Positions 36,356-57,349 of a stretch of DNA of 64,000 nt are shown in pieces. This DNA comes from an uncultured candidatus Porisulfidus sp. (lineage in GTDB: Bacteria > Pseudomonadota > Gammaproteobacteria > Poriferisulfidales > Poriferisulfidaceae). Each line of letters begins with the position of its first letter. Position 1 is the stretch's first letter. A model generated the notes under the pieces. The model was not told the DNA's origin, did not search any database, and worked only from the letters and a program-made list of their open reading frames with translations. A program made the position numbers and the translations under genes. The stretch lies in assembly GCA_965204575.1 (NCBI GenBank), contig OZ241993.1, positions 1,040,586 through 1,104,585 on the forward strand. Direction: 5' to 3'.

Positions 36356-36433
<78 letters not shown>

Positions 36434-39911: not shown

Positions 39912-40012
39912 TCGCGCCGCCTGATGCGGCAGGTGTTGGACTACTACATTGCTCCGCAGACGATTCGGTCGCGGGGCATCATGCAGGCGCTGACGGGTTG
40001 ATTCCTGCGATC
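39912..40012. repeat. Direct repeat copy 2 (displaced recO 3' end)
   Basis: See the repeat at 39424-39526. Confidence 0.85.
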
Positions 40013-40052
40013 CTCGATATGGCACCTGAGCCTCAGCGGCTCAAAGGAGGGG

Positions 40053-40925: not shown

Positions 40926-41025
40926 TTGTCATTGCCGTTTGCGGGCGGTCCCAACGTGAATTATAAAGAAAGGTTGATGATTTTATTGGCAATCTATAAG
41001 ATGGTTTAAAATAAAAGAGATTCGC

Positions 41026-41945
41026 ATGGCACACAGGCAACCCGGGAAATCGTATCGTCAGGGCATCGCTCTGGCCCACCTGTTCGACACGTTCCCGAAC
41101 GAGAAAGCGGCGCAGGAATGGTTCGAAAGCGTGGTATGGGCGAAGGGACGCTACTGCCCACGCTGTGGCTCTACGAGCACCCACGAGGCCAAGCATGCGA
41201 AATGCCCATACCGTTGCCGCGATTGCGGAAAGTACTTCAGCGTGAAGACGGGAACCGCCATGGCATCGTCCAAAGTTTCTCTTCGCAAGTGGGCCATCGC
41301 CATATACATTGACGCGACCAGCCCGAAAGGCGTGTCTTCGCTCCAGTTGCACCGAGATATCGGTGTGTCGCAGCCCACGGCCTGGTTCATGTTGCACCGC
41401 ATCCGCGAAGGATTCACGGACAAGCGCGCATCTATGGATGGCTTGGCCGAAATTGATGAGATGCACATCGGCGGCAAGCGTAAGAATATGCCCAAGAGTA
41501 AGCGAAAGGAACGGTCAGGGCGGAGTGCAACCGGCAGGACTGCGGTCGTTGGCGTGAAGGATCGCCAGACGAGGAAAGCTCGTGCAAAAGTGGTGGCGGA
41601 CCCGGGTTTGGACACTCTCCATGAGTTTCATTCGTGATCACGTCGCTGATGACGCAAAGGTCTGTACGGACGATGCCGTTCGACTCTGAACCCGTGAAAC
41701 ATGGCATGGGAGAGTACGTGCGGGGCATGGCCTACACGAACGGGGTCGAGTCGCTCGGGCTCATGCTTGAGCGGGGCGATATCGGTATTGATCATCAAAT
41801 GATTGCAAAGCATCTTCACTGGTACGTCAGCGGATTCGCCGGTCGTCACGGGGTGCGCGAGCGGAACACGCTGGAGCAACTGCGGGATGTTGCCGCTAGA
41901 ATGGCCGGCAAGAGGTTGCCGTATTGCGAACGGGTTCGTTTCTGA
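41026..41945 (+). pseudogene. IS1595-family transposase, inactivated by at least two frameshifts
   Basis: An N-terminal Zn-ribbon (CPRCGSTSTHEAKHAKCPYRCRDCGKYF) and DDE region read to EFHS* at 41637. The segment IRDHVADDAKVCTDDA lies in another frame. A third frame carries GMGEYVRGMAYTNGVESLG...HLHWYVSGFAGRH. Confidence 0.75.
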
Positions 41946-41956
41946 CAGGGGAGTGA

Positions 41957-42898
41957 TTGGAGAGCGTCATGGGAAACCCGATTTATGGAGGTGCAACGCC
42001 TGAGCAGGTGGCACTTGAGATGCTTCGGCCATCCAAGTTCATTGAACCGCTTTATGATCTCGTGTTTGGGGACGCCTTTGATTGGCTGGAATCGGCGGAG
42101 CATGAATCGATTCACGCGGTCGTGACCGACCCGCCTTACGGGTTGATCGAATACAAACCTGAACAACTCCAGAAGCGCCGAGATGGCAATGGCGGGGTAT
42201 GGCGTCTGCCGCCTTCGTTTGATGGAAGCAAACGTCAGCCAGTTCCGCGCTTTACGGTCTTGACTGACAGGGACAAAGATGAAATGAGGGCATTTTTTGC
42301 CCGTTTGGCTGAAAGTCTCTACCCGGTCCTCGTTCCAGGGGCCCATGTCTTCATTGCTACCAACCCCCTTCTAGCCCATTTGGTCTTCGAACCGTTCCTT
42401 GCTGCAGGATATGAGAAACGAGGAACGCTGATTCGTGAAGTGCATACGCTGCGCGGCGGTGACCGTCCCAAAAATGCCCATAAGGAATTCCCTGATGTCA
42501 CGGTCATGCCAAGATCATGCTTTGAGCCATGGGAAATTTTCCGGCGTCCGCTTCAAGGACGCGTTCAAGACAATCTGCGAAAGTGGGGAACCGGCGGTCT
42601 TCGGCGTCTCTCTGCGGAGCAACCGTTCAAGGATTTAGTCAAATCGTGTCCAGCGAAGAGGAAGGAGCGGGAAATTGCCCCCCATCCTTCATTGAAACCG
42701 CAAGCGTTTCTTCGGCCGTTGGTGAGGTCCAGCCTTCCTCTTGGTAAAGGTACCATACTCGATCCATTTGCAGGGTCAGGGTCCACCCTTGCAGCGGCGA
42801 TGGCTTGCGGCATAGAGAGTGTGGGCATTGAACGTGACCCGGAATACCATCAAATGGCATTGGACGCCATTCCGGCGTTGGCGCGTTTGGAAGTCTGA
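41957..42898 (+). CDS. Beta-class DNA methyltransferase (N6-adenine or N4-cytosine)
   Basis: Motif IV TDPPYGL comes before motif I DPFAGSGSTLAAA, in the ParB-MTase/beta-class order. Confidence 0.85.
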   Translation: MESVMGNPIYGGATPEQVALEMLRPSKFIEPLYDLVFGDAFDWLESAEHESIHAVVTDPPYGLIEYKPEQLQKRRDGNGGVWRLPPSFDGSKRQPVPRFTVLTDRDKDEMRAFFARLAESLYPVLVPGAHVFIATNPLLAHLVFEPFLAAGYEKRGTLIREVHTLRGGDRPKNAHKEFPDVTVMPRSCFEPWEIFRRPLQGRVQDNLRKWGTGGLRRLSAEQPFKDLVKSCPAKRKEREIAPHPSLKPQAFLRPLVRSSLPLGKGTILDPFAGSGSTLAAAMACGIESVGIERDPEYHQMALDAIPALARLEV

Positions 42899-42900
42899 CC

Positions 42901-43500
42901 ATGTTCGACAATGATGTTCAATTGCCTCCCGGATTGGAGATTTCCGCGATCCAACGCTCTATCGAGTTTGTCGAAAAACAATTAAGTGAACGTGACTTCG
43001 TGGACCTCTATCTTGAACAGGCCAATATATTCAGCGCGTTAGTGGGCATGTTCGCAACCAAGGCGCTGGATCAAGTCAGCAACTATGAAAAGCATCGGCA
43101 TAGCCATACGGCTCAACAACGTTTTCCTGATTTGTGCCGCCGGGGAGCATCCTTCCCACTTAAACCCGAGGATTCACTGGAGAGCAAGGCCAGCAAACGG
43201 CCTTGGGCGATACAATCCCACTACGATCACGCCGGATGGTACATCATCTGGAGATATCTGGTCGACCTGACCAAGACCATCAAGGATGATGCGGCTTTGG
43301 TGATTTGGCGCGTTGATGTCGTCTATTTGACCAAAACCGATTGGAAGTACGAGGGTTCGTCGGCAGATATGAGTGGCGGAGGAAGAACGCATACTTTTGG
43401 TGTGCGAAAACCTGCCACGCGATTGCGGGGCTGTGCCGTCTACAAGCGCCCCGACATCGTCATTCGTGATGGCAAGCCTGTGCCCGTCAACCTTCCTTGA
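42901..43500 (+). CDS. Hypothetical protein, candidate restriction endonuclease partner of the methyltransferase
   Basis: 199 aa, immediately downstream (3-nt gap) of the MTase in a low-GC insertion. No family recognised. Confidence 0.4.
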   Translation: MFDNDVQLPPGLEISAIQRSIEFVEKQLSERDFVDLYLEQANIFSALVGMFATKALDQVSNYEKHRHSHTAQQRFPDLCRRGASFPLKPEDSLESKASKRPWAIQSHYDHAGWYIIWRYLVDLTKTIKDDAALVIWRVDVVYLTKTDWKYEGSSADMSGGGRTHTFGVRKPATRLRGCAVYKRPDIVIRDGKPVPVNLP

Positions 43501-43698
43501 TTCCCTATTCTTTAAGAACAGTCGTAAGCAGGCGCCAACTCCAGGCAGAGGAAAAGCAGCGAAAGCGAAGCTCTTGCTTCCGTATATCCCCTAGGAACCA
43601 AGTTCAAATATGCCTTGCAACTCTTGCGGAGTGTATGCAGGTATTCCCGGAAAGCCTTTAGTGGTAGAGTGTCCATAGCAAAAACTACTTTGTGTACC

Positions 43699-44421
43699 GT
43701 GAAGAATGTACGACTAGGCGTGAATATTGACCACATAGCGACCCTGCGCCAGCAGCGCCACACGGACTACCCGGACCTGGGCGAGGCGATCCGCCGAGTG
43801 GAAGCGGCCGGGGCGGACGGCATCACCCTGCACCTGCGCGAGGACCGGCGGCACATCCAGCTGGAGGACGTGGAACAGGCGCGCCGGGAAGTGAGTGGAA
43901 CCCTGAACCTGGAGATGGCCGCAACCGAGGAGATGCTGGACATTGCGGAACGCATCCGTCCGGATTACTGCTGCCTGGTGCCTGAGCGGCGCGAGGAACT
44001 CACCACTGAAGGCGGTCTGGACGTCGTGGCGGGCGAAGATCGGATCCGGGAGGCGTGCACCCGGCTGAAAGCGGCGGGCATTCAGGTTTCGCTGTTTGTC
44101 GAGCCGACGCACGAAGCGATGGATGCCGCGGTCGAACTGGGTGCGTCGATCGTGGAGTTGCACACCGGTCCCTACGCCAACGCGACGGAGCCGGAAGCCC
44201 ACGAGGCGGAGCTGGAACGGCTGGTTTCCACCACGCAGTATGCGCGGGAACGGCTGACGGTCAACGCCGGACACGGCTTGCATCGCGACAACGTGGGCCC
44301 GGTGGCTTCGATCCCGGGAATGAACGAACTTAATATCGGTCACGCCATCGTCTGCCGGGCGGTGATGGTGGGATTGGAAGGAGCCGTGCGCGAAGTGCGC
44401 GAAGCCATGGAGGCGTCATGA
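43699..44421 (+). CDS. pdxJ: Pyridoxine 5'-phosphate synthase
   Basis: [15 protein letters not shown]...[16 protein letters not shown]...NLEMA...VNAGHGL...ELNIGHAI is the PdxJ signature. GTG start assumed at 43699. Confidence 0.85.
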
Positions 44422-46115: not shown

Positions 46116-47243
46116 TCAGTCCAGCAGTTTCCCGATGATGGCGCGGTAGACTTCGGCCAGCCGGTCGAGGTCCTCGACGGCGACGTGCTCGTCGATCTTG
46201 TGGATGCTGCGGTTGATCGGGCCGAATTCGACCACTTCGGCGCCGGTCGGCCGGATGAACCGTCCGTCCGAGGTGCCGCCTTCGGTGCTGAGCTCCGCTT
46301 CCGACCCCAGCACTTCCGATACGGCGTCCTGGCAGGTCCGGGTCAGGGTGCCGGGCGGCGTGCGGTAAGGCAGGCTCGCCTCCGCCCATTCGATCTGGTG
46401 CTCAAACCCGGCTTGCCCGAGAATCCCGGCGATCCGCTCTTTCAGTTCTTCGGCGGTGACTTCCGTCGAGTAGCGCAGGTTGAAGTCCGCGGTCAGTTCG
46501 CCCGGGACCACGTTGGCGGCGCCGCATCCGCTGTTGAGGTTGGAAACCTGGAACCGGGTCGGCTGGAAGTCCTCGTTGCCCTCGTCCCAGATGGTTTCGG
46601 TCAGTTCCACCAGGGCCGGCGCGAACCGGTGAATCGGGTTGTCGCACAGGGCCGGGTAGGCGATGTGGCCCTGGATGCCGCGAACCGTCAACCGCCCGGA
46701 CAACGAACCGCGGCGGCCGTTCTTGATGACGTCGCCAAGCCGTTCGCGGCAACTGGGTTCGGCGACGACGCACCAGGCAGGGATCTCCCGGCGCGCCTGA
46801 AGTCGCTCGACCGCGGCCCGGGTGCCGTGCACGGCCGGGCCTTCCTCGTCGCTGGTCAGCAGCAGGCCGATGGCGCCGGGGTGATCGGGCCGTTGCGCGG
46901 CGTACCGGGCGCAGGCGACCACCATTGCGGCGACGCCGCCCTTCATGTCGGCCGCGCCGCGGCCGTACAGGAGCCCGTCGCGGATCGCCGGGCTGAAGGG
47001 GTCGCTGCTCCACTGCTCGAGCGGGCCGGTCGGCACGACATCGGTGTGCCCGGCAAACATCAGCAACGGTTCGCTTTCGCCGTGGCGCAGCCACAGGTTC
47101 TGAACCTCGGCGAACGGCATGGGCTCGGCGACGAACCCATGGGGCGCGAGGTATTCGGCGATCAGGTCTTGGCAGCCCGCGTCTTCCGGCGTGACCGACG
47201 GCCGCTCGATCAGCGCGCAGGCGAGGTCCAGGACTTCCGGCAT
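46116..47243 (-). CDS. dapE: Succinyl-diaminopimelate desuccinylase
   Basis: M20 peptidase motifs (GHTDVVP, SDEEG). 375 aa. Confidence 0.9.
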   Translation of the reverse strand: MPEVLDLACALIERPSVTPEDAGCQDLIAEYLAPHGFVAEPMPFAEVQNLWLRHGESEPLLMFAGHTDVVPTGPLEQWSSDPFSPAIRDGLLYGRGAADMKGGVAAMVVACARYAAQRPDHPGAIGLLLTSDEEGPAVHGTRAAVERLQARREIPAWCVVAEPSCRERLGDVIKNGRRGSLSGRLTVRGIQGHIAYPALCDNPIHRFAPALVELTETIWDEGNEDFQPTRFQVSNLNSGCGAANVVPGELTADFNLRYSTEVTAEELKERIAGILGQAGFEHQIEWAEASLPYRTPPGTLTRTCQDAVSEVLGSEAELSTEGGTSDGRFIRPTGAEVVEFGPINRSIHKIDEHVAVEDLDRLAEVYRAIIGKLLD

Positions 47244-47244
47244 G

Positions 47245-47592
47245 CTACCGCTCCAGCGCCTGCGCCCAGGCCGTCTCGTCGAAGCCGACGCTCAACGTGC
47301 CTTCGGCATCGAGAAGCGGACGCTTCAGCAGGGTGGGGTGGGCGAGGAGCAACTCGACGGCAGTCGCGTCGGTCAGCCCGCTGCGTTCGTCTTCCGGCAG
47401 TCGTCGCCAGGTCGTGGAGCGGCGGTTCAGCAACGTGTCCATCCCAAGCCGGGCGGCCCAGTCTTCCAGTTGGGTGCGCGTCAGCCCGTCGGCGCGGGTG
47501 TCGTGGAAGCGGTAATCAATGGCCTGGCGTTCCAGCCACCGGCGTGCAGCCCGGACCCGGTCGCAGTTGGGGATGCCATAGACGGTCACCAT
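47245..47592 (-). CDS. ArsC/Spx-family protein (YffB-like)
   Basis: MVTVYGIPNCDRVRAARRWL with a CxxR motif. 115 aa, between dapE and dapD. Confidence 0.75.
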   Translation of the reverse strand: MVTVYGIPNCDRVRAARRWLERQAIDYRFHDTRADGLTRTQLEDWAARLGMDTLLNRRSTTWRRLPEDERSGLTDATAVELLLAHPTLLKRPLLDAEGTLSVGFDETAWAQALER

Positions 47593-47594
47593 GG

Positions 47595-48422
47595 TCAACT
47601 GTCGGCCGCTTCGCGCAGGAGCGCGTTGATGCCGACCTTGCTGCGGGTCTTCTGGTCGACCTGCTTGACGATCACCGCGCAGGCCAGGCTGTACTTTCCG
47701 TCGGAAGCGGGCAGCGAGCCGGGGACGACCACGGCGCCGGCCGGGACCCGGCCGTAGGAGACCTCGTCGCGTGCGCGATCGTAAATCCGGGTGCTCTGGC
47801 CGATGAACACGCCCATGGAGATGACCGCGCCGCGTTCGACGATTACGCCTTCCACGATTTCCGAGCGTGCGCCGATGAAGCAGCCGTCCTCGATGATGGT
47901 GGGGGCGGCCTGCAGCGGTTCCAGCACGCCGCCGATGCCGACGCCGCCGGAGAGATGGACGTTCTTGCCGACCTGGGCGCAGGAACCGACCGTCGCCCAG
48001 GTGTCCACCATGGTTCCGGAGTCGACGTAGGCCCCGATGTTCACGAAACTCGGCATCAGCACCACGCCGGGCGCGATGAAGCTGCCGAAGCGCGCGGTCG
48101 CGGGCGGCACGATGCGGACTCCGCCGCTGTCCAGTTCCTTTTCGCTGCCCAGGGCGAAGCGGCCGGCCACCTTGTCGCGGTAGCGGGTGTGCCCGCCATC
48201 GATGACCTCGTTGTCGGTGATGCGGAACGAAAGCAGCACGGCCTTCTTGAGCCACTCGTTGACGACCCAGCCGCCGCCGGCGGGCTCGGCGACCCTCAGG
48301 CGGCCGTCGTTGAGGTCCTGCAGGGCTTCCCGCACGGCGTCGCGAACGGGCTCGGGGGCGGAGTCCGGGGTCAGTTGCGCGCGTTCCTCGAACGCCTGCT
48401 CGATGGTGGACTGGAGGCTCAT
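47595..48422 (-). CDS. dapD: 2,3,4,5-tetrahydropyridine-2,6-dicarboxylate N-succinyltransferase
   Basis: Hexapeptide-repeat left-handed beta-helix region. 275 aa. Confidence 0.9.
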
Positions 48423-48612
48423 GAGAGAGGCCCGGCTGAAAGCATGGCGCGTATGTTAACAGGAAGGTCGCGAGAGGCGGGGGCGGGCGGGCCGGCGACC
48501 GATGATTTTTCACCGTTGCGGCCGGCGCGTCCGCCGCGCTTGGAGTGGCGCACACCCGCGCAGGGACAGCGGCACGGCATGTTGTATACTTAGGCGAAAC
48601 CACAATGGTAGC

Positions 48613-48631
48613 CCCCCCCCCCCCCCCCCCC
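48613..48631. repeat. Poly-C homopolymer tract (19 C) in the dapD/secB-like divergent intergenic region
   Basis: gccccccccccccccccccccctag, read directly from the sequence. Confidence 0.9.
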
Positions 48632-48862
48632 TAGAAAGAGTCTTCCCCCGCGCCTCCGCGGCGGGCATCGGGAACGTCCGCGGCACCGCCCCGCGCAGGG
48701 CTGGCCGCGCGAGACGGCGGTCGGGCACGTGGCGCGGCCATCGCCAGGCAGGGCGCGTTCTTTCATGCCGGCCTCAAGCGCCTGCCCAGACCGGGGTTTG
48801 ATAAAGAAAAAACTATTTGTTAAAATCCTGCCCATCATCGGGAAGTGGTATTTGCATCTTTA

Positions 48863-49285
48863 ATGGAACCTAACATCGTTATGCATGGCCGATACATACG
48901 GGATCTATCCTTCGAGAATTTCGGTGCGCCGGCCTTGCCGGGGGACGCCGCCCCCGTCTTCGACATCGACGTCGGGGTGGAGAGCAGGCGGGCCCGGGAC
49001 ATGCACGAGGTGATGCTGTTCGTCCAGGTCACCGCCCGGCGCGAGGAGCAGATCGCGTTCCTGATCGAGTTGAACTACGCCGGCCTGTTCCAGGTCCAGG
49101 ACCTGGACGAGCGGGAGACGCGGCGTTTCCTCCACACCGAGGCGCCGCGCATGCTGTTTCCGTTCGTCGACCGGATCTGCGCGGACGCGACCCGGGACGG
49201 CGGCCTGCCGCCGCTGGCCCTGACGACCCCGGACTTCGCCCTGCTGTACCGGGAACGCGAGGAGAAACCCGCCGCCATCGACTGA
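48863..49285 (+). CDS. secB: SecB-like export chaperone
   Basis: GRYIRDLSFEN..., HEVMLFVQVTARREEQIAFLIELNYAGLF and MLFPFVDRICADATRDGGLPPLALTTPDFALLY align with E. coli SecB. Confidence 0.7.
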   Translation: MEPNIVMHGRYIRDLSFENFGAPALPGDAAPVFDIDVGVESRRARDMHEVMLFVQVTARREEQIAFLIELNYAGLFQVQDLDERETRRFLHTEAPRMLFPFVDRICADATRDGGLPPLALTTPDFALLYREREEKPAAID

Positions 49286-49314
49286 CTACTGAGCCTGTGT
49301 GGAAGCTCAGCCAC

Positions 49315-50727
49315 ATGCAAGAATCCCCCCCCCCCCCCTCAAACCATAACCGGCCTGAACTAGGGCCCGGCGCGGCCCGCGCGCCGGTCCTGCGCCGTCG
49401 CCGTCGCGACGGGTGGCTGCCGCCGGAGAAACGCCGTGCGCGTTCCAGGACGCGGGTGCGCCGGCAGGTGGCGGTCAACGTGCTGGGGGTGTGCTCCATG
49501 CTTTCGCACTCGGTGGCGCCGTACCTGGCGGCGGTCGCCGCGAAAAGCACCACCGCGGTCGGCGCGGTCGGCACGTTCGCCGCCCTGGCGCCCGACGAGG
49601 CGGCGGCGCAAAACCCGGGCCCGGCGGGAGCCAAGGGCGACAAGGGCGACAAGGGCCAGGTGGGCATTCCTGGACGACCGGGCGACAAGGGCGAGGAGAT
49701 GGGCGCACCCCCCGGTGAGAAGGGCGCAACAGGCGTAAAGGGCTCGCCCGGCGGAGAAGGTCAGAAGGGCGATCAGGGACGGCCGGGCAATCGAGGCAGC
49801 CGAGGCATACCGGGCGAAGAGGGGGCGAAGGGCGTGCTGGGATTCAAAGGCCTTCCGGGAGGCGCTGGCGATCAGGGCTCGAAGGGCCCGAGGGGCGATC
49901 CAGGTCCGCAGGGCTCGGCGGGTGTCAAGGGCGATACGGGCCAGAAGGGCGACCCGAAGGCGATCGGTGCCAAGGGCGATACAGGCGAGGCGGGCGCACC
50001 GGGTGCACCGGGCACGCCGGGCGCGCAGGGTTCGCAGGGCGCACAGGGCGCACAGGGCGCGCCGGGCGCACCGGGCGCATCGGGCACGCCGGGCGCCAAA
50101 GGGGAGGCAGGCGCGGGCGGCTTCGATTTTTCCGAGCAGGGGAAGGCGCGGGTCCGGGAGAAGGCCCGGGCCCTGCGGGAATCGGAGAACCCGGCCGACC
50201 AGCGGATCGGTCGGCTGCTGGAAGGCATCCTGGACGAGCTGGCGCCGGCCGCGGGGGGACAGCTGCAGTCGCTGCAGTCCGCCGGCGGGCGGGCGCTGCA
50301 GACCGAGGAGCCGGCGAGTGACAGCCTGACCCTGCTGCGGTATGCCTCCCGCTCCGACACGCCCCGGGCGGAGCAGGCCGGGGCGCTGATGGGCAGCATC
50401 TTCCTGAACCAGCGGGACATCGCCGAGAATCGCCAGAACATCGAGAAGAACCGGCAGGACATCGCCGGGCTGCGGGACGAGGACTACAGGCTGCGCAACC
50501 GCTCGCGCGAGGGGACCGCCCTGGCCATCGCGCTCGGCGGCATCCACTTCCCGCTGGACAAGGACCGGTCCGTCTCGCTGCGCTTCGGGCGCTTCGAGGG
50601 CGAGGAGGCGCTGGCGCTGGGCGCGTCCTTCCGCCTGCGGGAGAACTGGCAGATCGATTTTGGCATGGGCCGGGGGCTGAGCTACCGGCAGAACGGCTAT
50701 TCCGCCGGGCTGAGCTACAGCCGGTAG
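49315..50727 (+). CDS. Collagen-like trimeric autotransporter adhesin, paralog 1: Gly-X-Y repeat stalk, coiled coil, YadA-like C-terminal anchor
   Basis: About 56 Gly-X-Y triplets ([21 protein letters not shown]...), with Lys and Pro frequent in the Y position. The C-terminus [69 protein letters not shown] matches the YadA anchor pattern. The start is uncertain: ATG 49315 reads through the poly-C tract, and ATG 49498 is a conservative internal alternative. Confidence 0.65.
49325..49338. repeat. Poly-C homopolymer tract (14 C) at the 5' end of the first collagen-like adhesin gene
   Basis: aatcccccccccccccctc. It is in frame, encoding SPPPPS, if translation starts at ATG 49315. Confidence 0.9.
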
Positions 50728-50764
50728 GCGGCCCCTGAGACTGAACCACGAGGAGGTGAGGAAG

Positions 50765-52189
50765 ATGAGCAGCGAGGAGAAGAGGCGGCCGGATTCGGAA
50801 GACGGGCTTCCGCCCGAGTCGAGGGAGGCCGCGGGGCGCGCGCCGGTCCTGCGCCGTCGCCGTCGCGACGGGTGGCTGCCGCCGGAGAAGCGCCGTGCGC
50901 GCTCCGGGACGCGGGTGCGCCGGCAGGTGGCGGTCAACGTGCTGGGGGTGTGCTCCATGCTTTCGCACTCGGTGGCGCCGTACCTGACGGCGGTCGCCGC
51001 GAAAAGCACGACCGCGGTCGGCGCGGTCGGCACGTTCGCCGCCCTGGCGCCCGACAAGGCGGCGGCGCAGGACCCGGGCCCGCCGGGCCAGAAGGGCGAA
51101 AAGGGCGACGCGGGCGTACAGGGCGCGCCGGGTTCGCAGGGCGCGCCGGGTGGCGAAAAGGGCGGCCGGGGCGACATGGGCCAGAAGGGCGAGCCGGGTG
51201 ATCCGGGCGCCACGGGCGAGAAGGGTTCGCAGGGCTCACCCGGCAGGCGTGGCATCACCGGCAACAAGGGCGAGGAGGGTGATCCGGGCGCGACAGGTAG
51301 TCAGGGTCAGAAGGGCGTTTTCGGCGAGCCGGGTGATCCGGGTCCGCAGGGCGCGGCAGGTGATCCGGGTCAGAAGGGCGCGATGGGTCAGAAGGGCGAG
51401 GCCGGCGGCCCGCCGGGCCAGAAGGGCCAAAAGGGGACAGCCGGCACAGCCGGCCCGTCGGGCGCCGCCGGTGCGCCGGGCGCAGCCGGTGCGCCGGGCG
51501 CCGCCGGTGCGCCGGGCGCTGCCGGTGCATCGGGCGCCGCCGGTGCGCCGGGCGAGAAAGGCGATGCGGGCGCGGGCGGCCTTGACTTCTCCGAGGAGGG
51601 GAAGGCGCGGATCCGGACCACGGCCCAGATCCTGCAGAAATCGGAGAATCCCGCCGACCGGCAGATCGGGGAGCTGCTCGAGGAGGTCCTGGACGAACTG
51701 GCGCCGGCCGCCGAGGGACAGCTGCAGTCGCTGCAGTCGGCCGGCGGGCAGGCGCTGCAGGCCGGGGAGGAGCCGACGGGCGACAGCCTGGCCCTGCTGC
51801 GCTACGCCGCCCGCTCCGACGTCACCGGGGCGGAGCAGGCCGGGGCGCTGGTGGGCAGCGTGCTCCTGAACCAGCGGGACATCGCCGAGAATCGCCAGAA
51901 CATCGAGAAGAACCGGCAGGACATCGCCGGGCTGCGGCACCAGTACCGCGACCTGCGCGACCGCTCGCGCGAGGGGACCGCCCTGGCCATCGCGCTCGGC
52001 GGCCTGCGCGTCCCGGTGGCCCGGGACTGGGCCGTGTCGCTGCGCTTCGGGCGCTTCGAGGGCGAGGAGGCGGTCGCGCTGGGCGCGGCCTTCCGCCTGA
52101 AGGAGGGCTGGCAGGTCGATTTCGCGCTGGGCCAGGGCCTGAGTTACTCGCAGAACGGCTATGCCGGTGGCGTGAGCTACAGCTGGTAG
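50765..52189 (+). CDS. Collagen-like trimeric autotransporter adhesin, paralog 2
   Basis: A strong SD (AGGAGG) sits 8 nt upstream of ATG 50765. There is an Arg-rich N-terminal extension, a conserved hydrophobic leader, about 50 Gly-X-Y triplets, and a YadA-like anchor ending ...GVSYSW. Confidence 0.8.
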
Positions 52190-52199
52190 CCCGGTCGCG

Positions 52200-52832
52200 A
52201 TGGCGGTGCGGCGGCGGGCGGCGGAGGCGGCGATGCGGCACTTGCTGACGTACGAGGGGGCACGGGCGGACGGCTGCTGGCGGGAGGTCGCCCCGGACAT
52301 CCTGACCTTCCCGTTCTGGACCCCGGACTTCTGCGAGGAACTGGTGGCGGTGTCCGAGCTGCTCGACGAGTTCCGCCCGTACGCCCCCGACGTGGAGGGC
52401 AACGCCGCGCCGGGGCAGGAACTGCGGATCAACCGGATCAGCCCGCGCTTCGCGGAACAGTTCGAGACGCATTTCCAGGAGCGCGCGGCGCCGATCCTCC
52501 GCGTGCACTGGTGGCCGCTGAACCTGGGCAAGACGCGCATGCCCTTCGTGCTGCGCTACTCCGCCGACACGCAGGCCTCCCTCGACCCGCACCACGACGC
52601 CGCCATGGTGAGCCTGGCGATGCCGCTCAACGCCGGCTACGAGGGCGGGCACCTGACCTTCCCGCGCCAGCACTGGGACAGCCGCGAGGTCGAGGTCGGG
52701 CACGTGATCGCCTTTCCGAGCCGGGTCACCCACGTGCACTGGGTCACGCCGGTGACCTCCGGGACCCGCTACGCGATGACCTGCTGGCTGTCCGACCCGA
52801 ACGCCCAGCCCGACGATGCCATTCTCGCGTGA
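52200..52832 (+). CDS. 2OG-Fe(II) oxygenase homologous to the catalytic domain of procollagen lysyl hydroxylase (PLOD/LH)
   Basis: LDPHHDAAMVSLAMPLNAGYEGGHLTF...HVIAFPSRVTHVHWVTPVTSGTRYAMTCWLSDP parallels the human PLOD C-terminus ([29 protein letters not shown]...GTRYIMVSFVDP). HxD...H iron triad. Confidence 0.8.
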   Translation: MAVRRRAAEAAMRHLLTYEGARADGCWREVAPDILTFPFWTPDFCEELVAVSELLDEFRPYAPDVEGNAAPGQELRINRISPRFAEQFETHFQERAAPILRVHWWPLNLGKTRMPFVLRYSADTQASLDPHHDAAMVSLAMPLNAGYEGGHLTFPRQHWDSREVEVGHVIAFPSRVTHVHWVTPVTSGTRYAMTCWLSDPNAQPDDAILA

Positions 52833-54267
52833 GGAGCCGGCGGACGTCCCCGCCGTCCTTGTCGTCCACCTCGCGCGCCACCGGGAACGCCGCCGCCGCC
52901 TGTCCGCCCTGCTGAAGCGGCACGGGTTCGCGCACGTGAACTGGCTCGACGCGGTGGACGGCCGGGAGCTGGACCCCGCGCCGCCGTGGCGGGGCGCCGG
53001 CCTGCCGCCGGCCAACGCCTGGCCGAACTGGGCGGATCCGTACGCCCGCCGCGCCCTGACCCTGGGCGAGGTTGCCTGTACCCTGTCGCACGTGGCCGCC
53101 TGGCGGCGCATCGCGGACGAGGGCTACCCCGCCATCGTGCTGGAGGACGATGCGCTCCCGGTGGAGCCGCTGATCCGGGACCTGCCGGACCTGCTGGCGG
53201 ACCTCGATCACTTCGACTTCGACCTGTGCTACCTCGCCCAGCGCAACGCGCCGGGGCCGAAGGCGCTGATGGGCCGGCACGTGCACCTGGTCGACTACCA
53301 CCCGGTGTGGACGCTGGCCTACCTGCTGGCGCCGTCCGGCGCGGAGAAGCTGCTCGCCAGCCCCTGGCAGAGCCGGCTGGTCCCGGCCGACGAACTCCTG
53401 CCCGCCGCGTTCGGCCGGAACCGGGACCCGGAGATCAACCGGGCCTACGTCGGCGACGGCGGCATGGTGCTGTCCAGCAACCAGCGCTTCTTCACCCCGG
53501 CCGAGGGTTCGGAGAGCAGCGAGACCGAGAAGAGCCGGCCGGTGCGGGAGCCGGAATGCGGCCTGACGGGCCTGACCGTGGCGACCGAACGCCGCCCGGA
53601 ACTGCAGCGCCTGCAGGAGTCCGGCCTGCGCTACGGCCTGGAGATCGAGGCCCTGGGGCTGGGCCAGCCCTGGCGCGGCGGCGAGATGTCCGAGGGCACC
53701 GGCGGGGGACAGAAGATCAACCTGCTGCGCCCCGCCCTGCAGCGGCTGCCGCCGGAGCGGCCGGTGCTGTTCGTGGACGGCTACGACACCCTGATCTCCG
53801 GGCATGTCTCGGACATCCTGGGCGCCTGGCGGCAGACCTGCGACGGCCCGCTGTTCGCCGCCGAGGTCTACTGCTGGCCGGATCGCGACCGGGCCGACGA
53901 CTACCCTTCCGCGGCGACCCCCTACCGCTTCCTGAACTCCGGCGCCTTCATCGGCAAGGCCGGGGACCTGCTGCGCATCCTGGACGGGAAGATCGACGAC
54001 CGCGCGGACGACCAGCGCTACTACACCGAGCGCTTCCTGTCCGGCCGGCACGGCATGACGCTGGACACCGAGTGCCGGGTCTTCCAGTGCCTCAACGGCG
54101 CCCTGGACGACGTGCGGGCGGACGAGGGGCGGGGCATGCTGTTCAACCGGCGCACCGAGAACTGGCCGGCGGTGATCCACGCGAACGGCCCAAGCAAGGA
54201 GTGGCTGGAGAAGGACGGCCGGCCCGTGGGCGGCCGCTGGCGCCGCTACTACGGGGAGATGATTTGA
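52816..54267 (+). CDS. Bifunctional glycosyltransferase: N-terminal GT25 (collagen galactosyltransferase/LgtB-like) domain fused to a PLOD/LH3-type glycosyltransferase domain
   Basis: GT25 motifs VLVVHLARHRERR, LTLGEVACTLSHVAAWRRI and IVLEDD. The C-terminal half (LTVATE..LGLGQPWRGG..GGGQK..LFVDGYDTLISG..CWPD..YRFLNSGAFIG..YYTERFL..VFQCLNGALDDV..IHANGPSK) is colinear with the N-terminal GT domain of human lysyl hydroxylases. Confidence 0.8.
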   Translation: MPFSREEPADVPAVLVVHLARHRERRRRLSALLKRHGFAHVNWLDAVDGRELDPAPPWRGAGLPPANAWPNWADPYARRALTLGEVACTLSHVAAWRRIADEGYPAIVLEDDALPVEPLIRDLPDLLADLDHFDFDLCYLAQRNAPGPKALMGRHVHLVDYHPVWTLAYLLAPSGAEKLLASPWQSRLVPADELLPAAFGRNRDPEINRAYVGDGGMVLSSNQRFFTPAEGSESSETEKSRPVREPECGLTGLTVATERRPELQRLQESGLRYGLEIEALGLGQPWRGGEMSEGTGGGQKINLLRPALQRLPPERPVLFVDGYDTLISGHVSDILGAWRQTCDGPLFAAEVYCWPDRDRADDYPSAATPYRFLNSGAFIGKAGDLLRILDGKIDDRADDQRYYTERFLSGRHGMTLDTECRVFQCLNGALDDVRADEGRGMLFNRRTENWPAVIHANGPSKEWLEKDGRPVGGRWRRYYGEMI

Positions 54268-54286
54268 ATCTCTGGTTGAGGTAACG

Positions 54287-54709
54287 ATGAGCAAAAGAAT
54301 TTCAGCACTGGTCATCCTTGTCGCGCTGTCCCTGCCGCTGACCGCGCAGGCGCACGACAACCTCTTCAATCCGGGGCACCAGCACGGGCTTGAGGTCGAT
54401 GCCATTTCCGAGCGCAACAGAGGGTCTTTCTGCATCGTGTTCAAGGAATCTTCGGTCGAGTGTCCAGAGAAGTACAACAGCCTCAGAGGGTGCGCGTACA
54501 AGTGCCTGTACCGGGTATGGGCGGACTGGTCGGACGACCGGGGGAGTGGCCGCGAGGTCGATCATAACTGGAGCCGCTGCCATATTGCAGGCAGTCACAA
54601 CCCGGCGCTTGCGGCGGCGGAAGTCCGCATCACCAAGCCGCACTGGGCGACCGGGGCCTGGGGCGCGTATGTCCGCGCCGGGGATGACGGAGAAAAGATC
54701 GTGAGGTGA
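54287..54709 (+). CDS. Small secreted Cys-containing protein (signal peptide)
   Basis: MSKRISALVILVALSLPLTAQA signal peptide; 7 Cys residues; low-GC segment. Confidence 0.5.
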   Translation: MSKRISALVILVALSLPLTAQAHDNLFNPGHQHGLEVDAISERNRGSFCIVFKESSVECPEKYNSLRGCAYKCLYRVWADWSDDRGSGREVDHNWSRCHIAGSHNPALAAAEVRITKPHWATGAWGAYVRAGDDGEKIVR

Positions 54710-54737
54710 GACTGATGAACCCAAACAGGAGAAAATC

Positions 54738-55031
54738 ATGAAGAAAACCATACCCGCGCTGATCCTGATGCTGGCCTTGTCCCCGGCATACGGATTGGCA
54801 CCTAAACCCCGACCCCTTGTGGACATCTGCAAGGATCACTTCGAAAGAAGTTCCGCCTACCAGAGTTGCACCGATATTCAATATGCGGATGTCGGCGGCG
54901 GCTACTGCAAGGTCATGGCGTGGTGCCGCTCGGTAAATGAAACGCTATCTTCCACGTCCAAGAGGACAAAGCCGTCGGAGGCCGACGAACTGTACAACTG
55001 TCAGGGCCAGTTGACGATCAAGGTTTGCTGA
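54738..55031 (+). CDS. Small secreted Cys-rich protein (signal peptide)
   Basis: MKKTIPALILMLALSPAYGLA signal peptide, an SD (AGGAGA) upstream, and 8 Cys residues. Confidence 0.5.
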   Translation: MKKTIPALILMLALSPAYGLAPKPRPLVDICKDHFERSSAYQSCTDIQYADVGGGYCKVMAWCRSVNETLSSTSKRTKPSEADELYNCQGQLTIKVC

Positions 55032-55083
55032 TGGCCGGAGCAACGAGGCTAATCGTGAGCGGCGTGTTCGCCTGACCTGGGCC

Positions 55084-56055
55084 ATGCCTTCCGGGGAACC
55101 CGTGCTGGTCACCGGCGGGGCTGGCTACGTGGGCAGCCATGTGGCGCTGGCGCTTCGCGAGGCGGGCTACCCTGCCGTGGTCCTCGACGACCTCTCCACG
55201 GGGCGGCGCGAGGCGGTGCCCGACGGGGTTGGATTCATCGAGGGCGATGTCGGCGACCGGGTCGCCGTCGGCCGCATCCTCGGGGAATCCCGCATCGCCG
55301 CCGTCGTGCATTGCGCCGCCAGCGTCAGCGTCCCCGAATCCGTGCGCGACCCGCTACGCTACTACCGCAACAACAACAGTGCGGGCACGGGCTTGGTCCG
55401 CGCCTGCGTCGAGGCCGGGGTGGGACGCTTCGTCTTCTCGTCGACCGCCTCGGTGTACGGCGTGCCGCGCACGGTGCCGATCCCCGAGGATGCCCTGACC
55501 CTCCCCATCAATCCCTACGGATGCTCCAAGCTGGCCTCCGAATGGATGCTGCGCGATGTCGCGGCGGCCCACGACTTCCGCTGCATCACGCTGCGCTGCT
55601 TCAATGCGGCCGGGGCCGACCCCCGGGGCCGGGCCGGGTCGGATGGCCCGGATTCCGGACACCTGATCGAGGTCGCCTGTGCGGCCCTCGCCGGCCGCCG
55701 CGACCGCGTCACCGTGTACGGCACGGACTACGGGACGGCGGACGGCACCTGCGTGCGGGATTACGTCCACGTGTCGGATCTCGCCGCAGCCCATGTCGCC
55801 GCGCTGCGCGAGCTCGAGGACGGGGGGGAAGGCGGCGTGTTCAACTGCGGCTACGGACGCGGCTTCTCGGTCCGCGAGGTGTTGGAGACGGTGCAGGCCG
55901 AGGCGCGCGTGCGCCTCGACATCCGCGACGGGCCGCGTCGCGCCGGCGACCCCCCGGTGCTGATCGCCGAGGCGTCGAGAATTCGACGGACGCTGCGCTG
56001 GTCGCCGCGCTTCGACGACCTCGCCGTGATCGTCCGCACCGCACTCGCCCGCTGA
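55084..56055 (+). CDS. galE: UDP-glucose 4-epimerase
   Basis: Rossmann motif VLVTGGAGYVGSH, catalytic YGCSK, and an SDR extended-family C-terminus. Confidence 0.85.
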   Translation: MPSGEPVLVTGGAGYVGSHVALALREAGYPAVVLDDLSTGRREAVPDGVGFIEGDVGDRVAVGRILGESRIAAVVHCAASVSVPESVRDPLRYYRNNNSAGTGLVRACVEAGVGRFVFSSTASVYGVPRTVPIPEDALTLPINPYGCSKLASEWMLRDVAAAHDFRCITLRCFNAAGADPRGRAGSDGPDSGHLIEVACAALAGRRDRVTVYGTDYGTADGTCVRDYVHVSDLAAAHVAALRELEDGGEGGVFNCGYGRGFSVREVLETVQAEARVRLDIRDGPRRAGDPPVLIAEASRIRRTLRWSPRFDDLAVIVRTALAR

Positions 56056-56207
56056 AACCGGCTTCCCGTCGCCGGGACCAGGCGAAGGCCGCGCCCGTGT
56101 GACCGGGGTCCGTATCCGGGCAGGGCCACGTCTTCGGGCGTGTAATGGCGCAGGAACGGCTTGCCGGGCGTGCCGCGGCGGTTGTCGAGCCTGCCGCTCT
56201 CGCGGCA

Positions 56208-56450
56208 TCATGCGAGCAGCCGGGTCAACTGCGCCCGCGACAGCCCGGTGGCCTTGCCCAGGTATGCCTTGAACGCCCCCTTGTCGGCCTTGCCCAGGTG
56301 CGGGCAGTCAAACTGCCGGCAGGTGGCTTCGGTGAAGCGGCAGGCGTCGCAGCGGGAGACCGGCTCCAGGTCGAACGAGTCGTTGCCGGCGGTGAAGTCG
56401 CGCAGGTCCTGCAGGGTCCGGATGCGTCGGGTGTTTAGCTTCAAGATCAT
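56208..56450 (-). CDS. Hypothetical small Cys-containing protein (weak call)
   Basis: An 80-aa stretch from an internal Met of a longer minus-strand ORF, with a CDACRFTEATCRQFDC cluster. Uncertain. Confidence 0.2.
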   Translation of the reverse strand: MILKLNTRRIRTLQDLRDFTAGNDSFDLEPVSRCDACRFTEATCRQFDCPHLGKADKGAFKAYLGKATGLSRAQLTRLLA

Positions 56451-56722
56451 CCTTCGGATGATCCCGCAGCCCTTCAGGCTCCTGTCTCGTTGGAAATGGT
56501 ATGAAGGCCGCCTTGGTTTTGGCGGGCGGATCATCAGGAGAGAGAGGCGAACCCTCCAGCCTGGTTGCTGGAAACCGATATTGTCCACCTGGGGCACTTT
56601 AGATGCCGTACCGGACTGCTGGAGGGTTCGCCTCCTCATCCGATCAGATCCAGGCCGGGCGGCCTTTATAATGGCAATCCACAAATGACGGGCTTCGGAA
56701 GCATCGGAGCATCGGCCAAACA

Positions 56723-57349
56723 ATGGAAGGACCCGACATCGTCTGCGTTCACCAGACCAACTTCCTGGAAAAGGAGGAAGCGCTCCGCCTGCGCGACCAG
56801 ATGGCCCAGGCCATCTCCCTGCACGGAAGCCAGGGGACCGTGGGCAGCAGAGACGGGAATTTCAGCGTCGACAAAACCTACCGGAACTCCAAGATCTACT
56901 TCCTCGACCCGTGGAACCCGCCCGACTGCATGGACGGCGACCTGGTGCGGGCGGTGTTCTACAAGATCGCCGGGTTTGCGGAAATCGCCTGCCGCACCAC
57001 CCTCAAGCACCTTGACATCCGCCTGAACGATCTCGCCGGCACCCCGCTTCAACTCGGCCGCTACCGGGTGGGCGAGCGGTACGAGGAGCATTCCGACAAC
57101 AGCGAGAGTTCGCATAAGGGGCGGCTGCTCTCGATCTCCGTGACCGTCTCGAGCGCCCGCGAGGGCGGCCACCTCTTGCTCAGGCGGCTTCCTCCGAGCA
57201 GTCCGGCGGTCGAGGAAATCCGGCAGGACCGGGCCATCGTCGCCTTTCCGAGCTGGGAACGGCACAGCGTGAGCGCCGTCGAGCAAGGGGAACGCTATTC
57301 GATCGTGACGTGGTTCGAAGGCACGCGCGGAAGCCCGGGGCAGCGGTGA
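56723..57349 (+). CDS. Prolyl 4-hydroxylase-like 2OG-Fe(II) oxygenase (P4Hc/PKHD type)
   Basis: RVGERYEEHSDNSE (HxD) ... KGRLLSISVTVSSAREGGHLLL ... AFPSWERHSVSAVEQGERYSIVTWF fit the P4Hc fold and match the layout of YbiX/PiuC-type hydroxylases. Confidence 0.7.
   Translation: MEGPDIVCVHQTNFLEKEEALRLRDQMAQAISLHGSQGTVGSRDGNFSVDKTYRNSKIYFLDPWNPPDCMDGDLVRAVFYKIAGFAEIACRTTLKHLDIRLNDLAGTPLQLGRYRVGERYEEHSDNSESSHKGRLLSISVTVSSAREGGHLLLRRLPPSSPAVEEIRQDRAIVAFPSWERHSVSAVEQGERYSIVTWFEGTRGSPGQR

What the first reader, a model, noticed from the sequence alone, without database searches (positions are those of the whole stretch)
48600..48640. Second, longer poly-C tract (19 C) in the dapD / secB-like divergent promoter region at the island edge
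The tract lies between two divergently transcribed starts (dapD start at 48422 on the minus strand and the secB-like start at 48863 on the plus strand). That is where tract-length variation could modulate promoter spacing for the island operon.

It also coincides with the left boundary of the inserted island, so it might be an integration scar or a recombination hotspot. An AT-rich stretch containing ttaaaat follows it.
Basis: inference. Interest (0 to 1): 0.6.

Follow-up and report, generated by a model that had tools for sequence, protein, structure and literature searches.

The report
Variable poly-C tract before adhesin operon
A real run of 20 cytosines lies upstream of a horizontally acquired operon for collagen-like surface adhesins; its counterpart in a related lineage varies in length, so it is probably an ordinary mutable expression switch, though not one that works through the spacing of the main promoter.

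Summary
The tract is real. It is C20 (48612-48631), not C19, flanked TAG-C20-TAG, and about 1e-5 such runs are expected by chance. It lies 189 nt upstream of dapD (-) and 231 nt upstream of a SecB-like gene (+).

That gene opens an island operon with two collagen-like YadA-anchor adhesins, a lysyl-hydroxylase-like oxygenase, a collagen-type Gal/Glc-transferase fusion and GalE.

The tract belongs to the island, not to dapD. A related lineage with the same cassette carries TAG-Cn-TAG 118 nt upstream of its SecB-like gene. There n is 12 to 16 in five assemblies encoding the identical SecB-like protein, and 6 of 11 contigs break at the tract.

A second tract (C14) lies just before the first collagen gene and is C16 in the closest relative.

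The best sigma-70-like promoter (TTGATA-17-TAAAAT, conserved in that relative) starts 166 nt downstream of the tract, so promoter spacing is not supported. The tract more likely sits in the leader of a distal transcript.

In this genome it lies in 280 nt of lineage-specific junction DNA, at one end of a cassette segment inverted relative to two relatives. The closest relative lacks it.

Verdict: a new member of a known kind (a homopolymeric contingency tract). The mechanism is unproven, and a relic reading remains plausible.

The parts
48612..48631 (+). Poly-C tract, 20 C (poly-G on the dapD strand): the finding
   Evidence: About 1e-5 expected by chance. A related lineage has a homologous TAG-Cn-TAG tract with n = 12-16.
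48609..48634 (+). TAG-C20-TAG motif. The TAG triplets on both sides are the only flanking sequence shared with the tract of the P0005 lineage.
   Evidence: In blastn of 48500-48870 against all loci, only TAG+Cn and Cn+TAG match. Sequences.
48605..48607 (+). ATG 4 nt upstream of the tract, a candidate start of a short leader ORF. At n=20 it reads MVAPPPPPP*. At n=19 or 22 the ORF runs to a TAA overlapping the SecB-like ATG.
   Evidence: Shuffles show the open frame is not significant. No clear Shine-Dalgarno sequence. This is inference only.
48563..48590 (+). Distal promoter-like site GGGACA-16-TATACT. Its -10 ends 21 nt before the tract, which would put the tract in a transcribed leader.
   Evidence: 9 of 12 matches; 0.1 sites expected in shuffles. 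Not validated.
48518..48797 (.). Lineage-specific junction DNA that contains the tract. It has no homologue in relatives L089 or L180.
   Evidence: dapD-side homology with L089 ends near 48517. Homology with L180 begins at the -35 hexamer, near 48798 (the blastn match starts at 48838).
48798..48826 (+). Proximal promoter-like site TTGATA-17-TAAAAT (TG-extended -10) for the SecB-like operon, 166 nt downstream of the tract
   Evidence: 10 of 12 matches. Conserved as TTGAAA-16-TAAAAT in L180.
48863..49285 (+). SecB-like chaperone gene, the first gene of the island operon
   Evidence: Pfam SecB E 1e-34, but below the NCBIfam equivalog cut-offs. Homologues sit in the same cassette elsewhere.
49325..49338 (+). 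Second poly-C tract (C14), 40 nt after the SecB-like stop codon and just after a conserved ATG (49315). At n=14 it is in frame with collagen gene 1.
   Evidence: It is C16 in L180/L181 and C14 in L171, and ATGC is invariant 5-8 nt upstream.
49315..50727 (+). Collagen-like trimeric-autotransporter gene 1 (collagen repeats plus YadA anchor). The start codon is probably ATG 49315, read through the C14 tract.
   Evidence: The conserved Arg-rich N-terminal extension requires a start upstream of 49371.
50765..52189 (+). Collagen-like trimeric-autotransporter gene 2, a tandem duplicate with period 1459 nt. ATG 50765 follows GAGGAGG.
52200..52832 (+). 2OG-Fe(II) oxygenase resembling collagen lysyl hydroxylase
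   Evidence: Pfam PF13640. Matches the LH domain of human LH3 (E 6e-14) and of mimivirus L230 (E 1e-12).
52816..54267 (+). Fusion of a GT25 domain (COLGALT1-like) and a PLOD-type glucosyltransferase domain
   Evidence: Pfam. PDB matches: LH3 GT domain 2e-40, mimivirus R699 8e-34, COLGALT1 1e-22.
55084..56055 (+). GalE (UDP-glucose 4-epimerase), the last conserved gene of the inverted segment
   Evidence: TIGR01179 at 392 bits.
56049..56664 (.). The other junction of the inverted segment, also without a homologue in relatives
   Evidence: No significant repeat is shared with the 48518-48797 junction.
56723..57349 (+). Second 2OG-Fe(II) oxygenase of the cassette. It keeps its orientation relative to glnD as in L180 and L089.
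   Evidence: 96% nt identity to L180 7147-7874. PF13640 in relatives.
48423..48517 (-). Conserved dapD upstream region. It is core genome, not part of the element, and marks the island's left boundary.
   Evidence: Alignment with L089 and blastn.

Best explanation
The C20 run is a genuine hypermutable homopolymeric tract that belongs to the acquired collagen-adhesin cassette. It is one of two such tracts in the cassette's 5' part.

Most likely it is a contingency (phase or 'rheostat') element. Slipped-strand mispairing changes its length, and that changes how much of the SecB-like/collagen-adhesin operon is expressed.

It does not act through the spacer of the main promoter. It probably acts from within the 5' leader of a transcript started at a weaker distal promoter just upstream (48563-48590). 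That transcript would add a variable component to the constitutive proximal promoter (48798-48826).

**Shown**
- The tract is real and far beyond chance.
- It is linked to the cassette, not to dapD.
- The homologous tract in a related lineage is polymorphic in length and breaks assemblies.
- The same cassette has a second variable tract at the collagen gene.

**Inferred**
- This particular tract varies within this organism's population.
- It is transcribed.
- Its length affects expression.
For: 1. C20 lies at 48612-48631, with about 1e-5 expected by chance. The only two long C/G runs in 64 kb both sit in the first 730 nt of the island operon.
2. The P0005 lineage (SecB-like 74% identical, same cassette) has TAG-Cn-TAG 118 nt upstream of its SecB-like gene. 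In assemblies encoding the identical protein n is 12, 13, 14, 15 and 16. Six of 11 contigs begin in or at the tract.
3. Only TAG-Cn-TAG is shared between the window's leader and that lineage's leader, while everything around it has diverged. Six matching flank bases are unlikely by chance (about 3e-4, my estimate). This points to common descent under constraint.
4. Poly-C tracts recur on the sense strand upstream of the collagen gene across the cassette family: C14 in the window, C16 in L180/L181, C14 in L171 and C11 in L089.
5. A promoter-like site lies 21 nt upstream of the C20 tract in the window. Another lies 36 nt upstream of the C11 tract in L089. Both are compatible with the tracts being in 5' leaders.
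6. The controlled genes encode surface adhesins, the usual targets of such switches. Precedents: the G(n) tract upstream of the uspA1 trimeric autotransporter gives graded transcription (PMC7302503). C-stretches of up to C19 occur in Bordetella fim promoters (PMC1891110). SSRs acting through a 5'-UTR are described in PMC12721329 (abstract).
Against: - The tract is 231 nt from the start codon and 166 nt upstream of the best promoter. By the positional rule used for Bordetella tracts, a tract more than 150 nt upstream has a low probability of overlapping a promoter (PMC1891110).
- The closest relative (L180/L181, SecB-like 97% identical) keeps the proximal promoter but has no tract upstream of it. 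The tract is therefore dispensable for operon expression.
- In the window the tract lies in lineage-specific junction DNA created by a rearrangement.
- No second assembly of this exact locus could be retrieved, so length variation of this tract itself is untested.
- In the P0005 lineage the scan tool finds no sigma-70-like site on either side of the tract.
- The length differences come from metagenome consensus assemblies, and homopolymer sequencing error may contribute.
Confidence: 0.5

Rival explanations
1. Relic or by-product. The tract is an inherited or displaced piece of an older switch, or of a collagen-gene 5' end, that a rearrangement stranded upstream of the operon. It still mutates in length but has no effect on expression in this genome. 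The working switch in this lineage would be the C14 tract at the collagen gene.
For: - The tract sits in 280 nt of junction DNA with no homologue in L089 or L180, at one end of a segment inverted relative to both.
- The closest relative lacks it but keeps the proximal promoter and the collagen-gene tract.
- The left flanks of the two tracts in the window resemble each other: CCACAATGgtag-C20 and CCACATGcaagaat-C14.
- One reading frame after C20 gives a weak hit (4.2 bits) to the conserved RRRD(S/G)W motif of the collagen N-terminal extension.
Against: - TAG-Cn-TAG is conserved with the P0005 lineage although the surrounding DNA is unalignable. This argues for constraint.
- A 20-nt pure run without interruptions is not what decay produces. 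Unselected tracts tend to shorten and accumulate interruptions (general knowledge).
- The profile hit is marginal and is in Arg-rich, GC-biased frames.
Confidence: 0.27
2. Recombination-prone site. The C/G run (G20 on the other strand can form a G-quadruplex, and it causes replication slippage and stalling) promotes breakage and illegitimate recombination. It would be a cause of the rearrangements at the cassette's 5' end, not only a bystander. This reading does not exclude the best explanation.
For: - In the P0005 lineage, L084 (fetched again as L175) has an unrelated left flank joined exactly at the tract. The join is in a k=141 assembly, so it cannot be an overlap artefact of a 12-nt run.
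- L083 (fetched again as L173) has a compound tract, C16-acgcccccttccg-C9.
- 6 of 11 contigs stop at the tract, as expected for a branch point in the assembly graph.
- The window's tract lies in an inversion junction.
Against: - In the window the tract is about 95 nt inside the junction DNA, not at either homology breakpoint (near 48517 and near 48798).
- The two junctions share no significant inverted repeat. The best match is 23 nt at 87% identity (E 0.86 against the whole window; a 15-nt core at E 0.055 between the two junction segments).
- Only one alternative flank was seen, with only 215 nt of sequence.
Confidence: 0.1
3. Classical promoter-spacer switch, as in Bordetella fim or Neisseria opc/porA/fetA. 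The tract would set the distance between a -10 element right after it (TAGAAA) and an upstream -35 or activator site, for either the SecB-like operon or dapD.
For: - TAG follows the tract in both lineages and could begin a -10-like hexamer (TAGAAA in the window, TAGGTC in the P0005 lineage).
- Long C-stretches have this role in the fim promoters (PMC1891110).
Against: - The scan finds no -35/-10 pair straddling the tract on either strand.
- TAGAAA and TAGGTC lack the conserved T at position 6, and they share only TAG.
- With 20 C any -35 hexamer would fall inside the run.
- The conserved dapD upstream region ends about 95 nt before the tract.
- A near-consensus promoter exists 166 nt downstream.
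Confidence: 0.08
4. Sequencing or assembly artefact, for example a poly-G/C read artefact or a chimeric join.
For: - Homopolymers of this length are hard to sequence, so the exact count of 20 is uncertain.
- No second assembly of this locus could be retrieved.
Against: - Homologous tracts with the same TAG flanks occur in at least five independent assemblies from NCBI, ENA, JGI and Logan.
- A second tract 700 nt away is conserved in three lineages.
- The sequence on both sides is continuous with genes of one genome.
Confidence: 0.03

Closest known systems
Moraxella catarrhalis uspA1 G(n) tract (PMC7302503)
   Same: A homopolymeric G/C tract upstream of the ORF of a trimeric-autotransporter adhesin. 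Its length differs between strains, and it changes mRNA level in a graded way rather than by frameshift.
   Different: The uspA1 tract is short (6-12 G) and lies 29 bp upstream of the ORF (PMC7302503, Table 1). Here the tract has 20 C, lies 231 nt upstream, sits in front of a chaperone gene that heads a multigene operon, and a separate strong promoter lies between tract and gene. No expression data exist here.
Bordetella fim2/fim3/fimX promoter C-stretch (PMC1891110)
   Same: A long poly-C run (up to C19 in B. bronchiseptica fim3) upstream of a surface-adhesin gene in a GC-rich proteobacterium, with length polymorphism between strains.
   Different: [quoted passage not shown] Here no promoter elements straddle the tract. 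The organism is a gammaproteobacterium whose DapD is at most 75% identical to any species representative found.
Helicobacter pylori sabA with two repeat tracts (PMC2715451, PMC4081817, abstracts)
   Same: One adhesin locus carries two simple-sequence tracts, one in the upstream regulatory region (rheostat-like) and one at the 5' end of the coding sequence (on/off). The window has C20 upstream of the operon, and C14 apparently inside the start of collagen gene 1.
   Different: The repeat types differ (poly-T and CT in sabA), the adhesin class differs, and the sabA upstream tract is adjacent to the -35 element.
Haemophilus influenzae SSR acting through a 5'-UTR (PMC12721329, abstract) and Neisseria meningitidis nadA distal repeats (PMC2791445, abstract)
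   Same: Precedents for repeat tracts that act from outside the core promoter, either in the 5'-UTR or upstream of the -35 element.
   Different: Those use multi-nucleotide repeats with defined protein or RNase partners. No such partner is known or predicted here.

Membership tests
Homopolymeric-tract contingency locus (slipped-strand phase variation) | Uninterrupted homopolymer long enough to slip (about 8 nt or more) | tested here: met
   C20 at 48612-48631. About 1e-5 expected by chance.
Homopolymeric-tract contingency locus (slipped-strand phase variation) | Tract length differs between closely related strains or populations | tested here: inconclusive
   Met for the homologous tract of the P0005 lineage (12-16 C with an identical SecB-like protein). 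Met for the neighbouring collagen-gene tract (14 vs 16). Untestable for this exact tract because no second assembly could be retrieved.
Homopolymeric-tract contingency locus (slipped-strand phase variation) | Located in the regulatory region or 5' coding part of a surface or variable gene | tested here: met
   The tract is in the intergenic region upstream of the SecB-like / collagen-like YadA-anchor adhesin operon.
Homopolymeric-tract contingency locus (slipped-strand phase variation) | Length change switches or tunes expression | not testable with these tools
   Needs reporter fusions, or RNA and protein measurements on defined tract lengths.
Promoter-spacer tract (Bordetella fim, Neisseria opc/porA type) | Tract lies between the -35 or activator site and the -10 of the controlled promoter | tested here: not met
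   Two promoter-like sites were found. One ends 21 nt upstream of the tract and the other starts 166 nt downstream. None straddles it on either strand.
5'-leader tract (uspA1 / 5'-UTR SSR type) | Tract lies downstream of a transcription start and upstream of the start codon | tested here: inconclusive
   The promoter-like site GGGACA-16-TATACT at 48563-48590 would place the tract at about +12 to +35. This is a consensus match only and no TSS data exist. No sigma-70-like site was found near the P0005-lineage tract.
Intragenic frameshift switch (pilC / opa / bvgS type) | Tract lies inside the ORF of the controlled gene, so that +/-1 nt shifts the frame | tested here: not met
   No frame through C20 is continuous with the SecB-like ORF. 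ORFs through the tract stop at the TAG, 64 nt before the SecB-like ATG, or at a TAA overlapping it. By contrast, the C14 tract is in frame with collagen gene 1 from ATG 49315.
Integration scar / att site of a genomic island | Direct repeats at both island ends, an integrase or recombinase, and often a tRNA target | tested here: not met
   No repeat is shared between the two junctions beyond chance. The only tRNA is 12 kb away at 36357. The ORFs that were scanned against family libraries (46116-56055) include no integrase, but the right end of the island (56.1-58.2 kb) was not scanned. The only flanking repeat is TAG...TAG around the tract itself.

The most novel reading that the evidence does not exclude
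The tract may be the core of a three-state translational leader switch.

- An ATG lies just upstream of it: 4 nt in the window, 6 nt in L175, and 35 nt in frame in L174.
- Any frame of poly-C encodes polyproline.
- The conserved TAG right after the tract is the stop codon in one phase. At n=20 the product is MVAPPPPPP*.
- In a second phase the leader ORF runs the whole way and ends in a stop codon overlapping the SecB-like start. This is TAATG in the window at n=19 or 22, and ATGA in L174 at n=14. That arrangement would give translational coupling and protect the C-rich leader from Rho.
- The third phase stops 42-64 nt short of the start codon.

Tract length would then set operon output through uORF phase, Rho polarity, and EF-P-dependent polyproline stalling. 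The same tract may in addition serve as a recombination breakpoint that swaps upstream regions.
Probability: 0.12. Interest if true: 0.7.

Novelty: new member of a known kind. Interest (0 to 1): 0.45.

Why it matters
Homopolymeric contingency tracts are known almost entirely from host-adapted pathogens such as Neisseria, Haemophilus, Bordetella, Moraxella, Helicobacter and Campylobacter.

Here the same device appears in an uncultured gammaproteobacterial lineage known so far only from metagenome-derived assemblies. One relative comes from a Tara sample; the other sample types were not determined. It appears to gate a cassette for collagen-like adhesins together with enzymes resembling the animal and giant-virus collagen lysine hydroxylation and Gal-Glc glycosylation pathway.

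If the tracts do switch this cassette, the bacterium varies display of a host-mimicking, post-translationally modified collagen on its surface. That would be relevant to symbiosis and immune evasion.

There is also a practical point. These tracts break metagenome assemblies (8 of 13 contigs examined end at one), so such loci are systematically fragmented and under-annotated.

Tried and rejected
**Searches that gave nothing useful**
- Exact-protein look-ups of DapD, SecB-like, DapE and P0001 to find other assemblies of this locus returned nothing on record.
- The genome-collection scan with DapD gave a best hit of only 75% identity. None of the 80 loci carries island genes. This defined the island as absent from distant relatives but identified no organism and gave no allele of the tract.
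- The metagenome scan with a SecB-like alignment returned only canonical SecB at 40-48% identity.
- The plasmid collection searched with the glycosyltransferase gave no match.
- Rfam at the gathering threshold and at E <= 1 showed no RNA family at or near the tract.

**Ideas tested and not supported**
- RNA folding of the leaders leaves the tract unpaired, and the folds are no more stable than shuffles (z = +1.05 and +1.47). A 7-bp stem closing the tract in L174 is not conserved in the window.
- The open leader ORF is not significant by dinucleotide shuffles (P = 0.21 and 0.58).
- The 'relic of a collagen gene 5' end' idea gave only a 4.2-bit profile hit.
- A search for inverted repeats between the two inversion junctions found nothing significant.
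- The C>G skew of the leader, as a Rho site, is in the top 1% of the window, but only because of the tract itself.
- A sigma-54 site and leftward (dapD-directed) promoters using the tract as spacer were examined by eye and rejected as poor matches.

Full report
**1. Observation.** With the window's composition about 1e-5 such runs are expected. The only other long run is C14 at 49325-49338, and the next longest C/G run is 7. In 1.83 Mb of unrelated proteobacterial loci fetched here only three C/G runs reach 9-10 nt. The tract is therefore real and non-random.

**2. Genes around it.**
- To the left, on the minus strand, are dapD (47595-48422), an ArsC-family gene and dapE.
- To the right, on the plus strand, the operon begins with a SecB-like gene (48863-49285).
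- It continues with two tandemly duplicated collagen-repeat/YadA-anchor genes (period 1459 nt).
- Next are a 2OG oxygenase and a GT25 + PLOD-GT fusion. The oxygenase matches the lysyl-hydroxylase domain of human LH3 and mimivirus L230. The fusion matches COLGALT1 and the LH3/R699 glucosyltransferase domain.
- The operon ends with a 140-aa protein of no known family, then GalE.
- Further right are a second 2OG oxygenase (56723-57349), then glnD and map on the minus strand.

The island thus fills the glnD-dapD interval, about 48518-58219. None of 80 DapD loci from other species has island genes beside dapD. The best DapD identity was 75%, to gammaproteobacterial MAGs and Thioalkalivibrio, so the organism has no close species representative among the loci returned.

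**3. Promoters.** The scan finds two sigma-70-like sites in 48300-49600, against 0.1 expected.
- TTGATA-17-TAAAAT lies at 48798-48826, 36 nt before the SecB-like ATG. It is conserved as TTGAAA-16-TAAAAT in the closest relative.
- GGGACA-16-TATACT lies at 48563-48590 and ends 21 nt before the tract.

Nothing straddles the tract, which ends 166 nt before the -35 hexamer of the strong site. The conserved dapD upstream region ends near 48517. 'Promoter spacing' is therefore not supported for either gene. If the distal site is active, the tract is in a transcribed leader.

**4. Relatives.** SecB-like homologues led to loci with the same cassette in different chromosomal contexts.

*P0005 lineage (74% identity).* A poly-C tract lies 118 nt upstream of the SecB-like ATG, flanked TAG-Cn-TAG as in the window.
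- Eleven assemblies from NCBI, ENA, JGI and Logan encode the identical SecB-like protein.
- Five of them span the tract, with n = 12, 13, 14, 15 and 16. The 16 is in a compound form, C16-acgcccccttccg-C9.
- The other six contigs begin in or immediately after the tract.
- One assembly, L084 (fetched again as L175), has an unrelated left flank joined exactly at the tract.
- Outside TAG-Cn-TAG the leaders of the two lineages cannot be aligned. This suggests the motif is inherited and constrained.

*Lineages without a tract upstream of secB.* The P0006 and P0010 lineages have no long tract.

*L089 (core about 87-90% nt identical).* It has none upstream of secB. It has C11 in the leader of its collagen gene, 36 nt after a promoter-like site.

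*L171 (82% identity).* It has C14 between the SecB-like and collagen genes.

*L180/L181, the closest relative (SecB-like 97%, core 94-96%).* It has C16 at that position, where both contigs end, and no tract upstream of secB.

**5. Structure of the locus.** Comparison with L089 and L180 shows that the segment from the SecB-like promoter to GalE is inverted in the window, relative to glnD, the second oxygenase and dapD. This assumes that the L180 cassette, whose contig ends just after its second SecB-like gene, continues as in L089. The two junctions, 48518-48797 (which contains C20) and 56049-56664, have no homologue in either relative. They share no significant repeat. So in this genome the tract lies in lineage-specific junction DNA.

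**6. The neighbouring C14 tract.** ATGC is invariant 5-8 nt upstream of this tract in three lineages. In the window ATG 49315 is in frame with collagen gene 1 only when n = 11, 14 or 17. The Arg-rich N-terminal extension (..[24 protein letters not shown]..) is conserved at the protein level across lineages. In gene 1 it has no in-frame ATG downstream of the tract. This looks like a classical frameshift on/off switch. In L171 the same ATG is out of frame at n = 14, and an internal ATG lies 48 nt after the tract. The cassette therefore seems to carry two mutable tracts, as H. pylori sabA does (PMC2715451).

**7. Mechanism for C20.** I commit to a contingency tract that acts on the operon from a 5' leader, at confidence 0.5. 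Precedents are given under evidence (PMC7302503, PMC1891110, PMC12721329).

A more specific and speculative version is as follows.
- The nearby ATG (48605), the polyproline coding of poly-C and the conserved TAG form a short leader ORF.
- At n = 19 or 22 in the window, and at n = 14 in L174, that ORF reaches a stop codon overlapping the SecB-like start (TAATG and ATGA respectively).
- Shuffles show the open frames alone are not significant, so I give this reading about 0.12.

**8. Against, and rivals.** The distance from the gene, the intervening strong promoter, the absence of the tract in the closest relative and its junction location all allow a relic with no present function (0.27). A role in promoting rearrangements is suggested by the flank switch in L084/L175 and by the contig breaks (0.10, not exclusive). 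A spacer-type promoter switch (0.08) and an artefact (0.03) are unlikely. No RNA family, stable structure or plasmid copy was found.

**9. Verdict.** Interest in the tract itself is moderate. The cassette it precedes is the more unusual object and deserves its own follow-up.

Noticed in passing
window 48863-57349: The island encodes what looks like a complete collagen lysine-modification pathway of the animal and giant-virus type, next to its likely substrates. The parts are two collagen-like YadA-anchor adhesins rich in G-x-K triplets, an LH3/L230-like lysyl hydroxylase, a COLGALT1-like + PLOD-GT fusion, GalE, a second 2OG oxygenase and a dedicated SecB-like chaperone. The block is conserved in at least five lineages in different chromosomal contexts. 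I found no paper describing it.
   Followed up: partly
window 49315-49338; L180 8461-8487; L171 627-647: The C14 tract just after a conserved ATG(C) is in frame with collagen gene 1 at n = 14. It is C16 in the closest relative, and C14 but out of frame in L171. This is probably a classical frameshift on/off switch for the first adhesin gene. Collagen gene 2 has its own ATG with a strong Shine-Dalgarno sequence and no tract.
   Followed up: partly
window 48518-56664 compared with L089 and L180: The SecB-like-to-GalE segment is inverted in the window relative to glnD/dapD when compared with two relatives. All three carry the cassette in the same glnD-dapD interval. The two junction segments are novel DNA, and no mediating repeat was found.
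   Followed up: partly
L084 / L175 positions 176-209: The alternative left flank that joins the tract in one assembly contains a 13-nt direct repeat, CCTTAAGTCAATG, twice with 8 nt between the copies. It is absent from the window and from all other loci. It could be a protein-binding site or a mobile-element end.
   Followed up: partly
L083 / L173 positions 361-398: A compound tract, C16-acgcccccttccg-C9-TAGG, replaces the simple Cn. The inserted 13 nt resembles the sequence that follows the tract (cgcctttccg), which suggests a slippage duplication or a misassembly.
   Followed up: no
L180 4313-7152: The closest relative has an IS605-family TnpB gene and two small ORFs inserted after glnD. It also carries a second, frameshifted SecB-like paralogue (109 + 50 aa) of the L089 type upstream of the oxygenase.
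   Followed up: no
window 49371-49497 and 50830-50956; L171, L174, L089, L081: The collagen-like adhesins carry a conserved Arg-rich N-terminal extension (..LRxRxRDSEWWS..[18 protein letters not shown]..) before the hydrophobic signal segment. It may be a family-specific extended signal region, possibly the part recognised by the SecB-like chaperone.
   Followed up: partly
L081 8461-9963 compared with L082 8073-9741: Two assemblies of one species differ in the collagen gene by indels of 42, 133 and 9 nt within the repeat region. The 133-nt indel splits the gene in L082. This is either repeat-length variation or assembly error in the collagen repeats.
   Followed up: no
window 56544-56560 and 56618-56634; 56208-56723 (-): A perfect 17-nt inverted repeat and a 171-aa ORF with no clear family lie in the right junction DNA. 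They may be remnants of a mobile element.
   Followed up: no
window 48726-48748 and 56078-56099: A weak inverted match (23 nt, 87% identity) has one copy in each junction of the inverted segment. It is not significant on its own (E 0.86 against the whole window).
   Followed up: no
window 54287-54709: A 140-aa ORF with a signal-peptide-like N-terminus and no Pfam or NCBIfam match lies between the glycosyltransferase and GalE, in a local GC dip. Relatives L083 and L089 lack it.
   Followed up: no
window 17000-21000, 23000-26000, 28000-30000, 39000-44000; tRNA-Pro at 36357-36433: Several stretches of 47-56% GC stand against a background of about 65%, and there is one tRNA-Pro (ggg). These may be further acquired regions. 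They were not examined.
   Followed up: no
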